From: an uncultured Bacilli bacterium
GTDB lineage: Bacteria > Bacillota_I > Bacilli_A > RF39 > UBA660
Assembly (NCBI GenBank): GCA_934101575.1
Contig: CAKORJ010000001.1
Location: 402,994-466,993 of the forward strand
Reading direction: 5' to 3'
DNA length: 64,000 bases
How positions within the stretch are numbered: position 1 is the stretch's first letter; every line of letters starts with the position of its first letter. Position numbers and translations under genes: made by a program. The notes under the pieces were generated by a model. The model was given only the letters and a program-made list of their open reading frames with translations. It was not told the origin of the DNA and ran no database searches. Positions 27,551 through 29,431 of this stretch are shown here, one piece after another.

Positions 27551-27892
27551 CTACACTCCTATCTTACAAGTACCGCTTGCTATACCTGCCATATATAGTA
27601 TAAAGTTTAATAACATTGGTAAAAAGAATATTGCTACACCTACCATTACTCTTTTTACTGTTCTTGAAAGTGCAACTTTCATATCCTTTTCTTCTTGGGC
27701 TATAACTGCCTTTAAAATATCTGTACAACATAACACTAATACCAAGCATGGTGTAGCTACTTGGATCCAAGTAAAAATATCATTTAAGACATTGGTAAAT
27801 TCCTTCCCTAAAACACTACAGTCAGATGCACTTGGTAATCCTCCCCAATAGCTATCCAATATATTAATATTATTCACAATAAAATCTATCAT
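27551..27892 (-). CDS. small two-TM protein, VirB2/TrbC pilin-like (paralog 1)
   Basis: 113 aa. Leader followed by hydrophobic-charged loop-hydrophobic topology. Paralogous to the next two genes. Confidence 0.4.
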   Translation of the reverse strand: MIDFIVNNINILDSYWGGLPSASDCSVLGKEFTNVLNDIFTWIQVATPCLVLVLCCTDILKAVIAQEEKDMKVALSRTVKRVMVGVAIFFLPMLLNFILYMAGIASGTCKIGV

Positions 27893-27986
27893 TAATTATC
27901 ACCTTCACACTAATTTTCTATTTTATTATAACAAAAAAAAAAGTACTAAACAATAAGTTTTATACTTTTTTATTATATTTTTTATA

Positions 27987-28349
27987 TTAGCAGCCTCGGA
28001 ATCCAACACATTGGAAACATACATTACTCTTGGTATCTGCGTCTCCTCCTACAAGTCCGAATATAACTTGGATTATCAATACTACGAAGAATATTGCTAC
28101 ACCATAAATAATTCTCATAAGTAACATTTTTTGTGCTGCTTTTATTTGTTTGTCTTCTCCAGCCATTACTGCTTTTCCTAAGTCTAATGTTCCTAATAGA
28201 ATTATAATAACTGGGATTGCAATTTGTAGTATTCTTACTATATTTCCAATAAATCTCCAAATAGCTATAGTTTCACTACAAAAAGTGTCTGCACTACCTA
28301 ATATTTGGGTAAAACCTGTTGCTGGAATTGAACTTAATATCTCTAACAT
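27987..28349 (-). CDS. small two-TM protein, VirB2/TrbC pilin-like (paralog 2) with Cys-rich C-terminal tail
   Basis: 120 aa. Shares IPVIIILLGTLDLGKAVMAGEDK with paralog 3. C-terminal CFQCVGFRGC. Confidence 0.45.
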   Translation of the reverse strand: MLEILSSIPATGFTQILGSADTFCSETIAIWRFIGNIVRILQIAIPVIIILLGTLDLGKAVMAGEDKQIKAAQKMLLMRIIYGVAIFFVVLIIQVIFGLVGGDADTKSNVCFQCVGFRGC

Positions 28350-28423
28350 TTTATATCTCTCCTTCTATCTATTTATATAATACTATAGTTATTATTATTA
28401 TGTCAAACTATTTTTTTATTTAT

Positions 28424-28825
28424 TTACACTTCTTCTTTTTCTGGGGCATTTTCATCATTTTTTTGTATTTCTTCTTGGTTTTTCTTCTCTTTTTCTTCTA
28501 CATATTTTAAACAACTTTTATTGTGTGGTTTTGTGGCACAGTCCCAACATATTTTTGAATCACCTTTTTCTGTTTCTACTCCTAAAAGTCCAAATATTAC
28601 TTTCACTATTGTGAATATAAAGAAAATTGCTACTCCATATATAAGTCTTCTTATAAATGTCTTTTGAGCTTCTTTTATCTTTTTATCTTCCCCGGCCATT
28701 ACTGCTTTTCCTAAGTCTAATGTTCCTAATAGAATTATAATGACTGGAATTACTATCCTAATAACATAGATAATGTCACCAATAAATTTCCACATACTTG
28801 CAGTATCTGCACAAAAGGTATCCAT
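28424..28825 (-). CDS. small two-TM protein, VirB2/TrbC pilin-like (paralog 3) with Cys-rich and acidic C-terminal tail
   Basis: 133 aa. IPVIIILLGTLDLGKAVMAGEDKKIKEAQK nearly identical to paralog 2. C-terminal CWDCATKPHNKSC. Confidence 0.45.
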   Translation of the reverse strand: MDTFCADTASMWKFIGDIIYVIRIVIPVIIILLGTLDLGKAVMAGEDKKIKEAQKTFIRRLIYGVAIFFIFTIVKVIFGLLGVETEKGDSKICWDCATKPHNKSCLKYVEEKEKKNQEEIQKNDENAPEKEEV

Positions 28826-28850
28826 AAAACCACCACCAAACTACTTGAAA

Positions 28851-28879
28851 AATATATCATATTTTACGCTAAATGTCAA
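28851..28879 (-). promoter_or_regulatory. sigma-70-like promoter for pilin-like gene block
   Basis: Minus strand TTGACA (28879-28874), 17-bp spacer, TATATT (28856-28851). Sits ~25 nt upstream of the ATG at 28825. Confidence 0.4.
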
Positions 28880-28990
28880 TTTTTATATGATTAGTACGCT
28901 ATAAATGTATGATTATTTTATGAAAATATAAATAAAATTATTTATTTTGTTTTTTAAATGTGATATTATTATTTTCGAGGTGTAAAAAAG

Positions 28991-29431
28991 ATGTTTAAAA
29001 AATATAAATGGCTTATTATATTACTAGTTGTAATTGTTTTACTTATTGCTGTTTCTTTAATATTTTCTGAAGATGATGAGAAATATATTCATGATATTAG
29101 TTTAAGTGAAGTATCTAGTAAAATTAAAAATGGCGATAGTTTTATACTTTATATTAAACAAACAGATTGTGAACATTGTAAGGCTTTTACTCCTAACTTT
29201 ATTGCTGCATTAAGTGAAAGTAACCTTGAAGCTTATTCTTTGAATATTTCTGATTTATCTGATGAGGATAATGAAAAGTATGAAGAGATGTTTGATGTTG
29301 ATGGTACTCCTACTGTATTATTCTTTGATAATGGTAATGAAAGTTTAATTAGGATTGAGGGAGAACAAACTAAAGCTAGGATAAAATCTAAGTTTGAATC
29401 TGTTGGGTTTTTAAAAGAGACTTCTAAATAA
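28991..29431 (+). CDS. thioredoxin-like (CxxC) secreted/membrane-anchored protein
   Basis: N-terminal TM helix then a CEHC redox motif in a thioredoxin-fold context. 146 aa. Confidence 0.6.
   Translation: MFKKYKWLIILLVVIVLLIAVSLIFSEDDEKYIHDISLSEVSSKIKNGDSFILYIKQTDCEHCKAFTPNFIAALSESNLEAYSLNISDLSDEDNEKYEEMFDVDGTPTVLFFDNGNESLIRIEGEQTKARIKSKFESVGFLKETSK

What the first reader, a model, noticed from the sequence alone, without database searches (positions are those of the whole stretch)
27551..29431. Three tandem pilin-like paralogs with Cys-rich tails, next to a CxxC thioredoxin-like gene
Three consecutive small ORFs (113, 120 and 133 aa) share a leader-TM-charged loop-TM architecture reminiscent of VirB2/TrbC pilins (or TcpE-like proteins). 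Paralogs 2 and 3 are nearly identical across the core (IPVIIILLGTLDLGKAVMAGEDK...IYGVAIFF) but diverge at the C-terminal tails (CFQCVGFRGC versus CWDCATKPHNKSC plus an acidic tail). This suggests recent duplication and diversification of a surface-exposed tip. The convergent downstream gene encodes a membrane-anchored thioredoxin-like protein (CEHC) that could form or isomerise disulfides in these tails. A TTGACA-17-TATATT promoter precedes the block.
Basis: partly seen in the sequence, partly recalled or inferred. Interest (0 to 1): 0.5.

Follow-up and report, generated by a model that had tools for sequence, protein, structure and literature searches.

The report
Disulfide-stapled T4SS pilins in a Firmicute
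Three small membrane proteins at the head of a chromosomal type IV secretion operon in an uncultured gut Firmicute are relatives of VirB2-type conjugative pilins, a component that current reviews say Gram-positive systems lack; their two outward-facing ends carry strictly conserved cysteines, and a dedicated membrane-anchored disulfide enzyme is encoded next door.

Summary
The three ORFs (133, 120 and 113 aa, minus strand) are real and homologous (A/B 61% identity, B/C 30%). They head an operon: pilA-pilB-pilC, VirB6-like, VirB3-like, TrsD/TraC-like, VirB4, VirD4. It sits between gerA and the dcw cluster, and no relaxase or integrase was found among the ORFs of at least 100 aa scanned in the 64 kb.

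Each protein is a two-helix hairpin with a K/R-rich central loop and predicted N-out/C-out topology. None has a cleavable leader.

The family is large (9,081 clusters at 50% identity). About half of the sampled members weakly hit Pfam T4SS_pilin (PF18895). No match was found on sequenced plasmids or phages.

Of 336 distinct small members, 309 have one N-terminal Cys plus either one or three tail Cys. This argues for an N-to-C disulfide staple, plus a second tail disulfide in most.

The thioredoxin-like gene is divergent from the array, not convergent. It is PedC-like, usually with a CxHC site. It lay beside this T4SS in 6 of 6 loci sampled from the enzyme side, with four different far-side neighbours.

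The triplication is ancient, not recent.

Verdict: a new variant of a known kind. The disulfide and pilus steps are inferred, not shown.

The parts
28424..28825 (-). pilA: 133-aa VirB2-like pilin paralog. It has no N-terminal extension (it starts MDTFC), a CWDC...C tail and a long acidic C-terminal tail.
   Evidence: ORF. Two TM segments with a K/R-rich loop. 61% identical to pilB. Position-1 orthologous clade.
27987..28349 (-). pilB: 120-aa VirB2-like pilin paralog. Cys24 is N-terminal; Cys111, Cys114 and Cys120 are in the tail.
   Evidence: 270 homologs. AF2 helical hairpin H28-63/H66-102, pLDDT 78.9. Cys rule.
27551..27892 (-). pilC: 113-aa divergent pilin paralog with one N-terminal Cys and one tail Cys, plus 3 Cys inside TM1.
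   Evidence: Weak PF18895 hit at E 0.003, 18.1 bits. NF045848 at E 1e-3. 30% identical to pilB, E 4e-13. The position-3 ortholog in L086 carries a precomputed PF18895 hit.
28851..28879 (-). Promoter-like site TTGACA-17-TATATT with a TG extended -10, upstream of pilA.
   Evidence: 11/12 match.
28377..28406 (-). Second promoter-like site TTGACA-18-TATTAT, upstream of pilB.
   Evidence: 11/12 match.
28991..29431 (+). Membrane-anchored PedC-like thioredoxin-fold oxidoreductase (CEHC), divergently transcribed from pilA.
   Evidence: Pfam Thioredoxin. PF20207 PedC-like. TIGR01295 at E 2e-10. N-in signal anchor. Closest PDB sequences are PDI a-domains. Adjacent to this T4SS in 6 of 6 loci sampled from the enzyme side.
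24936..27548 (-). Extended VirB6/TrbL-like polytopic protein (870 aa). It has a 312-aa loop with 4 Cys and a Gly/Ala-rich C-terminal region.
   Evidence: PF19597 TrbL_4 at 37 bits, above the cutoff. NF045848 and NF045889 Mycoplasma ICE families. TM segments and Cys positions.
24574..24915 (-). VirB3/PrgI-like two-TM protein (113 aa).
   Evidence: PrgI at E 0.006. It matches positions 4-94 of NF045975, the Mycoplasma VirB3-VirB4 fusion. Conserved in the loci.
23949..24614 (-). TrsD/TraC-like protein corresponding to the N-terminal domain of VirB4 (221 aa), encoded as a separate gene.
   Evidence: NF045975 positions 96-277, E 9e-11. PF26593 TraC-like, weak. The split is conserved in all related loci.
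22162..23952 (-). VirB4 ATPase core (596 aa).
   Evidence: NF045975 at 338 bits, positions 298-889. P-loop_TraG and AAA_10.
19715..22141 (-). VirD4-type coupling protein (808 aa).
   Evidence: PF02534 at 196.6 bits, plus TrwB_AAD_bind and TraG-D_C.
18974..19614 (-). Two small membrane proteins (103 and 106 aa) at the operon end. They are lineage-specific.
   Evidence: Found only in the closest relatives L003 and L004 and in same-species contigs.

Best explanation
The three ORFs are paralogous VirB2-superfamily (PF18895-like) pilin subunits. They belong to a chromosomal, apparently relaxase-less, Mycoplasma-ICE-like/MPF-FATA-type type IV secretion system in an uncultured, spore-forming, low-GC gut Firmicute.

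Proposed mechanism, step by step:
1. Insertion (inferred). Each subunit inserts without a leader as a helical hairpin. The conserved K/R-rich loop faces the cytoplasm and both ends face outward.
2. Disulfide staple (inferred). On the outer face, the single N-terminal Cys bonds to the first tail Cys, giving an N-to-C staple. This would be a functional analogue of the head-to-tail peptide cyclisation of T-pilin and TrbC.
3. Second disulfide (inferred). In the A and B types, the second Cys of CxxC bonds to the last Cys.
4. Catalysis (inferred). The divergently encoded, membrane-anchored PedC-like oxidoreductase (CxHC) forms or proof-reads these bonds, as PedC does for the four-Cys pediocin. It may also act on the 4-Cys loop of VirB6.
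5. Assembly (inferred). The stapled subunits are then used by the VirB6/VirB3/TrsD/VirB4 machine, either as a pilus or as a channel sleeve. Their variable ends would be exposed and the conserved loop would line the inside.

Shown here: homology, topology signals, the Cys rule and the gene linkage. Inferred: the bonds themselves, catalysis by the Trx-like protein, polymerisation and the transported substrate.
For: - Operon context is conserved in more than 45 loci: pilins, VirB6, VirB3, TrsD-like, VirB4, VirD4.
- Family-level hits: PF18895 in 30 of 50 and 38 of 76 members (best 1.1e-7), TrbC/VirB2 in 8 of 50, and the NCBIfam Mbov_0395 'pilin-like conjugal transfer protein' in 5 of 76. The gene order matches Mbov_0395-0396-0397.
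- Each protein has two TM helices, a loop with 5-7 K+R and acidic ends. AF2 predicts a hairpin.
- 33 of 149 representatives carry a Sec signal peptide or a secreted N-domain directly before the hairpin, which places the N-end outside.
- Cys rule: 116 of 120 close homologs have one N-terminal Cys plus C-x2-C-x4-8-C. The other 4 keep only the N-terminal Cys and the first tail Cys.
- Among 336 distinct small members, 218 are (1,3) and 91 are (1,1), and 95% have an even count. No (0,0), (0,2) or (1,0) pattern occurs.
- The ends are variable (2.1 bits) while the Cys are fixed. The loop is the most conserved part (0.57 bits).
- Trx orthologs all have an N-terminal anchor and one CxxC. In 25 of 35 the motif is CxHC. 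The closest PDB sequences are PDI a-domains. All 99 homologs carry PF20207 PedC-like.
- 6 of 6 loci sampled from the Trx side sit divergently beside three pilins plus the T4SS, with four different far-side neighbours.
- In the pilin-first sample, loci with a (1,3) pilin are 19 Trx+ and 6 Trx-, while loci with only other patterns are 2 Trx+ and 14 Trx- (Fisher p 9e-5, not corrected for phylogeny).
Against: - None of the window's three proteins reaches the Pfam gathering score. pilC scores 18.1 against 26.6 bits, and pilA and pilB have no hit.
- A profile search finds no PDB sequence relative.
- The Trx gene is absent from the immediate upstream region in close relatives L002 and L003, so adjacency is not obligatory.
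- In the window the Trx also abuts a class B PBP whose PASTA domain has a Cys pair.
- No re-oxidising partner (DsbB, VKOR or BdbC type) was seen in the locus.
- No disulfide, pilus or transfer has been observed. All data come from metagenome assemblies.
- The Trx-versus-Cys association is confounded by shared ancestry.
Confidence: 0.62

Rival explanations
1. The small proteins are VirB2-like in ancestry but do not form an extracellular pilus. They stay in the membrane as stator or channel subunits of the VirB6/VirB3/VirB4 translocon. This would resemble T4SSs in which VirB2 is needed for transfer but no pilus is seen.
For: - The window's operon has no VirB1-like hydrolase and no VirB5 or VirB8 homolog.
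- The host is walled: it has a PBP2B with a PASTA domain, MurJ and a gerA operon.
- The most conserved part of the protein is the cytoplasmic loop, which fits a contact with an ATPase.
- Reviews state that Gram-positives do not elaborate conjugative pili (PMC12857230).
Against: - Conserved exposed ends with disulfides, an acidic tail, family members fused to secreted domains and three paralogs with variable ends fit a surface structure better.
- Relatives do carry M23 or CHAP hydrolases in the operon.
Confidence: 0.25
2. The thioredoxin-like gene is a housekeeping extracytoplasmic oxidoreductase of the cell-division and sporulation neighbourhood. It would be comparable to B. subtilis StoA acting on the class B PBP SpoVD (my recollection of the B. 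subtilis literature, not checked here). On this reading it lies beside the pilin array only by synteny.
For: - In the window and in L005, L012, L026 and GCA_016648615.1 it is convergent with, and within about 10-110 bp of, the PBP2B gene of the mraZ-mraW-ftsL-pbp cluster.
- The PBP has Cys665 and Cys672 in its PASTA domain.
- L002 and L003 keep the T4SS without an adjacent Trx gene.
Against: - In at least 16 species-level loci and in 5 of 6 loci sampled from the Trx side, the gene stays beside the T4SS while the other neighbour is not a PBP. Those neighbours include ProRS, GtrA, Fic/RhuM, a LysM-BacA block and PriA.
- In L082 it heads the T4SS operon even though the pilins have moved.
- The active site is CxHC, not the CPPC/CEPC of StoA/ResA as I recall them. 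The ResA model scores 14.5 bits against a cutoff of 170.
Confidence: 0.1
3. The block is a bacteriocin-type locus. The small Cys-containing peptides would be matured by a PedC/BrcD-like disulfide isomerase, and the T4SS genes would be unrelated neighbours.
For: - The best curated match of the Trx is the PedC/BrcD bacteriocin maturation family (TIGR01295, E 2e-10; PF20207).
- The small ORFs have a four-Cys pattern, as in pediocin-like peptides.
Against: - The TIGR01295 score of 40.6 bits is far below its cutoff of 120.
- There is no ABC transporter with a C39 peptidase, no double-glycine leader and no immunity gene.
- The proteins are 110-130-aa two-TM hairpins whose best conserved part is the cytoplasmic loop.
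- Their order relative to VirB6/B3/B4/D4 is fixed in more than 45 loci.
Confidence: 0.03

Closest known systems
VirB2/TrbC conjugative pilins (Pfam PF04956) and T4SS_pilin (PF18895), including the tandem VirB2-like arrays of Patescibacteria (PMC12102498)
   Same: - Small two-helix hairpin with a basic loop.
- Encoded at the head of, or beside, VirB3/VirB4/VirB6 genes.
- Tandem arrays of divergent paralogs.
- The Patescibacterial clusters share the accompanying set (VirB6, PrgI/VirB3, a separate TrsD, VirB4), are mostly chromosomal and mostly lack a relaxase.
   Different: - The host is a walled, spore-forming Firmicute, not a diderm or a Patescibacterium.
- The window's subunits have no leader peptide.
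- Hits to the Pfam models are sub-threshold for the window's own proteins.
- The ends carry a conserved Cys system (1 + 1 or 1 + 3) instead of peptide cyclisation or N-acetylation.
- No TraF-like cyclase is present.
- A dedicated PedC-like oxidoreductase is linked to the system.
Mycoplasma ICE conjugation core: Mbov_0395 'pilin-like' (NF045849), Mbov_0396 VirB6-like (NF045889) and Mbov_0397 VirB4 (NF045975); CDS15-16-17 of ICEA
   Same: - These are the best curated matches for VirB4 (338 bits) and for VirB6.
- The gene order is the same: pilin-like, then VirB6-like, then VirB4.
- Both lack VirB1 and VirB8.
   Different: - In Mycoplasma, VirB3, TrsD and VirB4 are fused into one 894-aa protein. 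Here they are three genes, and the split is conserved in all relatives.
- No ICE backbone is present here (no DDE recombinase and no element borders). The cluster sits at fixed sites among core genes.
- There are three pilin paralogs with Cys ends and a Trx partner.
PedC/BrcD bacteriocin maturation disulfide isomerases (TIGR01295, PF20207), and by analogy F-plasmid TrbB (TIGR02738)
   Same: - Membrane-anchored, extracytoplasmic thioredoxin fold with one CxxC.
- The proposed job is to get two disulfides right in a four-Cys client.
- TrbB is a precedent for a T4SS-dedicated thiol-disulfide isomerase.
   Different: - The scores are far below the equivalog cutoffs: 40.6 against 120 bits for PedC_BrcD, and 18.1 against 132 bits for TrbB.
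- The genomic partner is a T4SS, not a bacteriocin exporter.
- TrbB is periplasmic and DsbC-like, and as far as I recall it serves TraH, TraN and TraU rather than the pilin (not checked here).

Membership tests
VirB2/TrbC-superfamily T4SS pilin (PF04956 / PF18895) | Small protein with two hydrophobic helices separated by a short charged loop | tested here: met
   Kyte-Doolittle TM segments at 18-36/65-83 (A), 37-55/80-98 (B) and 39-57/82-100 (C). The loops hold 5-7 K+R. The AF2 model is a hairpin.
VirB2/TrbC-superfamily T4SS pilin (PF04956 / PF18895) | Match to the family HMM at or above the curated threshold | tested here: inconclusive
   In the window, pilC scores 18.1 bits against a cutoff of 26.6, and pilA and pilB have no hit. 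At family level, 30 of 50 members hit at E <= 0.1 and 38 of 76 at E <= 0.01 (best 1.1e-7), and 8 of 50 hit TrbC. One position-3 ortholog has a precomputed PF18895 hit at E <= 1e-5.
VirB2/TrbC-superfamily T4SS pilin (PF04956 / PF18895) | Cleavable N-terminal leader or signal peptide | tested here: not met
   None of the three has an N-terminal hydrophobic segment. A heuristic count finds a leader in 33 of 149 family representatives. No dedicated signal-peptide predictor was available.
VirB2/TrbC-superfamily T4SS pilin (PF04956 / PF18895) | Encoded with VirB3/VirB4/VirB6 of a T4SS | tested here: met
VirB2/TrbC-superfamily T4SS pilin (PF04956 / PF18895) | Polymerises into a pilus, or is required for substrate transfer | not testable with these tools
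   This needs microscopy and genetics in an uncultured organism.
Conjugative element (ICE or plasmid) with an MPF-FATA T4SS | VirB4 ATPase and VirD4 coupling protein | tested here: met
   PF02534 at 196.6 bits. NF045975 at 338 bits, which is below its 590-bit cutoff because the protein is split into three genes.
Conjugative element (ICE or plasmid) with an MPF-FATA T4SS | Relaxase, integrase or recombinase, and element borders near the T4SS | tested here: not met
   Pfam scans of 60 window ORFs, nearly all of those of at least 100 aa, found only housekeeping genes, two Rpn-like PD-(D/E)XK nucleases and one reverse transcriptase about 33 kb away. No tRNA gene is present. The site is the same in 23 contigs of the species. 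oriT was not searched for.
Conjugative element (ICE or plasmid) with an MPF-FATA T4SS | VirB1-like cell-wall hydrolase and VirB8-like subunit | tested here: not met
   Neither was detected in the window operon. More distant relatives carry an M23 (L042) or CHAP (L073) protein between virB4 and virD4; these were read from sequence motifs, not from an HMM.
PedC/BrcD thiol-disulfide isomerase (TIGR01295 / PF20207) | Membrane-anchored thioredoxin fold with CxxC | tested here: met
   All 99 homologs carry PF20207.
PedC/BrcD thiol-disulfide isomerase (TIGR01295 / PF20207) | Equivalog-level HMM score and linkage to a bacteriocin and its ABC exporter | tested here: not met
   The score is 40.6 bits against a cutoff of 120. 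The neighbours are T4SS genes in all sampled loci.
StoA/ResA-type reductases | HMM match and a CxPC-type site | tested here: not met
   ResA scores 14.5 bits against 170. The motif is CEHC here and CxHC in 25 of 35 orthologs. The CxPC expectation rests on my knowledge of these families.

The most novel reading that the evidence does not exclude
Walled gut Firmicutes build genuine VirB2-type T4SS pili. This would be the first case outside diderms and Patescibacteria. Their subunits would be closed by an N-to-C disulfide made by a dedicated PedC-like enzyme, rather than by peptide cyclisation. The chromosomal, relaxase-less machine would be a domesticated system, sister or ancestral to the essential Patescibacterial T4SS, and would be used for something other than classical conjugation.
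Probability: 0.3. Interest if true: 0.8.

Novelty: new variant of a known kind. Interest (0 to 1): 0.6.

Why it matters
A December 2025 review of T4SSs (PMC12857230) states that VirB2 and VirB5 are not found in Gram-positive systems except in Patescibacteria, and that Gram-positives do not make conjugative pili. The 2025 Patescibacteria survey (PMC12102498) left open where their VirB2-like arrays came from, because MPF-FATA systems were thought to lack them.

This locus bears on both points:
- It shows the same module in a spore-forming Firmicute lineage: pilin array, VirB6, VirB3, separate TrsD and VirB4.
- The family has thousands of 50% clusters.
- The gene order ties it to the Mycoplasma ICE core.
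- Together these give a concrete candidate link between monoderm conjugation machines and the Patescibacterial system.

The strict Cys rule and the linked oxidoreductase also suggest a previously undescribed way to close a pilin hairpin. That idea can be tested directly by expressing the pilin and the Trx-like protein heterologously.

Tried and rejected
- A profile search against PDB sequences gave no meaningful hit.
- tblastn of pilB and of a broader family member (P0136) against 72,556 plasmids, and of P0136 against 50,697 phages, found nothing. The best plasmid relatives of VirB4 are only 29% identical. No annotated or cultured reference could be obtained this way.
- Cluster look-ups gave no source names for any of the five proteins.
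- Rfam found nothing in the window.
- Literature searches for RF39 plus T4SS and for PedC plus conjugation gave nothing relevant.
- Rejected: the split VirB3/TrsD/VirB4 as frameshift pseudogenes, because the split is conserved in all loci.
- Rejected: recent duplication, on the tree.
- Rejected: the TcpE-like reading, because no library supported it.
- My first column-based Cys classification was misled by alignment shifts. I replaced it with region counts.
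Full report
**1. Observation**

They lie at 28424..28825 (133 aa, here pilA), 27987..28349 (120 aa, pilB) and 27551..27892 (113 aa, pilC), all on the minus strand. They are clearly homologous. A/B are 61% identical over 95 aa (E 5e-43), and B/C are 30% identical (E 4e-13). The quoted core and tails are correct.

The ORF at 28991..29431 (+) has a thioredoxin fold with CEHC and one N-terminal TM segment behind a KKYK start. 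That makes it an N-in signal anchor with the domain outside.

The TTGACA-17-TATATT site with a TG extended -10 is at 28879..28851 (-). A second 11/12 site precedes pilB. The overall count of such sites is not above shuffles, so only the position of these two is meaningful.

Two descriptive points are wrong. None of the three proteins has a leader-like hydrophobic segment. The thioredoxin gene is divergent from pilA, head to head across 165 bp, and is convergent only with the PBP gene on its far side.

**2. Context**

The pilin genes open a minus-strand operon:
- an 870-aa VirB6/TrbL-like protein (TrbL_4, 37 bits);
- a 113-aa PrgI/VirB3-like protein;
- a 221-aa TrsD/TraC-like protein;
- a 596-aa VirB4;
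- an 808-aa VirD4 (196.6 bits);
- two small membrane proteins.

The best curated matches are the Mycoplasma ICE families. NF045975 (a VirB3-TrsD-VirB4 fusion, 894 aa) is covered here by three consecutive ORFs, at profile positions 4-94, 96-277 and 298-889. This split recurs in every related locus, so these are real genes and not frameshifts.

The flanks are the gerA operon on one side and Trx, PBP2B, ftsL, mraW and mraZ on the other. The rest of the window holds core genes: DnaE, HtrA, BipA, PcrA, Ffh, MutM, PolA, AlaS, RecD2, PrkC/PrpC, RsgA and RlmN.

No relaxase, integrase or tRNA gene was found. The same arrangement occurs in all 23 contigs of the species that were read, mostly from human gut metagenomes.

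**3. The family**

A word-indexed search found 270 unnamed homologs of pilB with no Pfam annotation. An exhaustive profile search found 9,081 clusters at 50% identity with E <= 1e-3, and 4,358 with E <= 1e-10.

Scanned one by one, 30 of 50 close members and 38 of 76 distant members hit PF18895 T4SS_pilin (best 1.1e-7). Eight of 50 hit TrbC/VirB2. Five of 76 hit NCBIfam NF045849, 'Mbov_0395 family pilin-like conjugal transfer protein'. The window's own proteins stay below the Pfam threshold.

The GTDB species-representative scan returned 77 loci. All come from uncultured gut MAGs labelled Bacilli, Tenericutes, Mycoplasma sp., Erysipelotrichaceae or Clostridium, apart from a few with other labels that may reflect binning. 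More than 45 of them show the order pilin(s), VirB6, VirB3, TrsD-like, VirB4, VirD4.

More distant relatives carry an M23 or CHAP hydrolase between virB4 and virD4. These are therefore ordinary monoderm-type T4SSs, except for the pilins.

No family member was found on 72,556 plasmids or 50,697 phage genomes.

**4. Topology and the cysteine rule**

Each paralog has two TM helices, a loop with 5-7 K+R and acidic ends. By the positive-inside rule this predicts N-out/C-out.

There is independent support for that topology. Thirty-three of 149 representatives carry a Sec-type signal peptide, with or without a secreted N-domain of about 250 aa, immediately before the hairpin. Nine carry large C-terminal extracytoplasmic extensions.

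In 116 of 120 close homologs there is exactly one N-terminal Cys, in the motif FC, fixed 32 residues before DLGKAV. These also have C-x2-C-x4-8-C in the tail. The other four keep only the N-terminal Cys and the first tail Cys.

Over 336 distinct small members the patterns are (1,3) in 218 and (1,1) in 91. Ninety-five percent have an even number. The patterns (0,0), (0,2) and (1,0) never occur.

The simplest reading is a universal C1-C2 bond tying the N-end to the C-end, plus an optional C3-C4 bond. pilC is a (1,1) type, while pilA and pilB are (1,3).

The ends are otherwise the variable parts (2.1 bits), whereas the helices and loop are conserved (0.6-0.8 bits). This matches the known geometry of VirB2-type pili, in which the loop lines the lumen and both termini are on the surface (my knowledge of F-pilus and T-pilus structures, not tested here).

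**5. The oxidoreductase**

All orthologs in the loci are 140-160 aa with an N-terminal anchor and one CxxC. In 25 of 35 the motif is CxHC, and CPHC and CGHC both occur. That is the oxidising DsbA/PDI type rather than the reducing CxPC type (my knowledge of these families). The closest PDB sequences are PDI a-domains. All 99 homologs carry PF20207 PedC-like.

Linkage was tested from both sides. Starting from pilins, loci with a (1,3) pilin are 19 Trx+ and 6 Trx-. Loci with only other patterns are 2 Trx+ and 14 Trx- (Fisher p 9e-5, not corrected for phylogeny).

Starting from the Trx, 6 of 6 sampled homologs (45-67% identity) sit divergently next to three pilins plus the T4SS. Their other neighbours are Fic/RhuM, a LysM-BacA block, PBP2B or PriA-MutM-PolA. 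In L082 the pilins have moved to between virB4 and virD4, yet the Trx still heads the operon beside VirB6.

The gene therefore travels with the T4SS, not with the PBP. The exceptions are L002 and L003. VirB6's 312-aa loop has four Cys and may be a further client.

PedC is known for ensuring correct pairing in four-Cys pediocin (my knowledge, not checked here). That fits the observation that the enzyme accompanies the four-Cys pilins.

**6. Duplication history**

A neighbour-joining tree of array members from about 14 species separates positions 1, 2 and 3 into three orthologous clades. The A/B DNA core is a 188-nt repeat at 79% identity. The triplication is therefore ancient and the gene order is conserved.

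Natural chimeras exist. P0003 has the B N-end with the A tail, and P0004 has the A N-end with the B tail. This shows recombination through the shared core.

**7. Comparison with what is known**

The architecture matches the Patescibacterial T4SS: VirB2-like arrays, VirB6, PrgI, a separate TrsD and VirB4, mostly chromosomal and without a relaxase (PMC12102498). It also matches the Mycoplasma ICE core in gene order. It differs in four respects: the host, the missing leader, the Cys staple and the linked oxidoreductase.

Reviews state that Gram-positive T4SSs lack VirB2 (PMC12857230). Pfam and NCBIfam curators have implicitly recognised pilin-like proteins in such systems. I therefore rate this a new variant of a known kind, not a categorically new system.

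**8. What remains inferred**

The following are not shown: the disulfides themselves, their catalysis by the Trx-like protein, polymerisation into a pilus as opposed to a membrane-embedded role, and the substrate and biological role of a T4SS without a relaxase. Structure-based searches were uninformative for such a simple fold.

Noticed in passing
window 33406..35181 (-) and 35277..37328 (-); L030 16333..19077: Two very large proteins (591 and 683 aa) carry an N-terminal type IV pilin N_methyl motif and lie about 4 kb from the T4SS. In one strain (L078) one of them is split into 92 + 473 aa. In relative L030 a 914-aa N_methyl protein sits between virB4 and virD4. This hints at a link between T4P-like adhesins and this T4SS.
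   Followed up: partly
window 60434..63631: A 21-22% GC stretch holds an RVT_1 reverse transcriptase (338 aa, 61551..62567), an overlapping 111-aa ORF (62548..62883), an Rpn-like PD-(D/E)XK nuclease (60434..61399) and a MutS domain I fragment (63221..63631). Rfam gave no hit. It could be a retron or a defence-type element.
   Followed up: partly
window 37428..38399 (-): A second Rpn-like PD-(D/E)XK 'transposase' family protein (323 aa) lies next to the large N_methyl proteins.
   Followed up: no
window 45548..47290 (-): The alanyl-tRNA synthetase ORF is only 580 aa (tRNA-synt_2c plus tRNA_SAD). It seems to lack the usual C-terminal part.
   Followed up: no
proteins P0003 and P0004 (homologs from other samples); window 28036..28223 and 28569..28756: Natural chimeric pilins exist: the B N-end with the A tail, and the A N-end with the B tail. 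This implies unequal recombination between the tandem paralogs through their shared 188-nt core (79% identical in the window).
   Followed up: partly
family representatives P0139, P0146, P0157, P0162, P0260 and others: Some family members are fusions. In 22 of 149 representatives a signal peptide and a secreted domain of about 250 aa precede the pilin hairpin. Others have a hairpin followed by a large C-terminal domain; by eye P0260 looks SGNH-like, and P0162 could be a peptidase or amidase. These domain calls were not tested.
   Followed up: partly
window 24574..23949 (overlap 24574..24614) and 23949..23952: VirB3, the TrsD-like protein and VirB4 are three overlapping genes (overlaps of 41 nt and 4 nt). 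In Mycoplasma ICE the same parts form one fused 894-aa protein. The split is conserved in all related loci.
   Followed up: yes
window 20001..28000 against its flanks: The T4SS block has 31-34% GC, against 25-29% in the flanking core genes. No element borders were found.
   Followed up: no
loci L039, L040, L044, L046, L047, L053-L056, L064, L066, L067, L070, L071: In other MAGs, solitary two-Cys pilin-like genes occur with up to 10 kb of flank on each side (less on short contigs) and no detectable T4SS gene. These are orphan pilins of unknown context.
   Followed up: no
window 27925..27933 (-): An extended -10 (TGTTATAAT) without a good -35 lies upstream of pilC, after a weak hairpin and a T-run that follow pilB. 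I read this from the sequence; the scan did not report it. Each paralog may have its own promoter.
   Followed up: no
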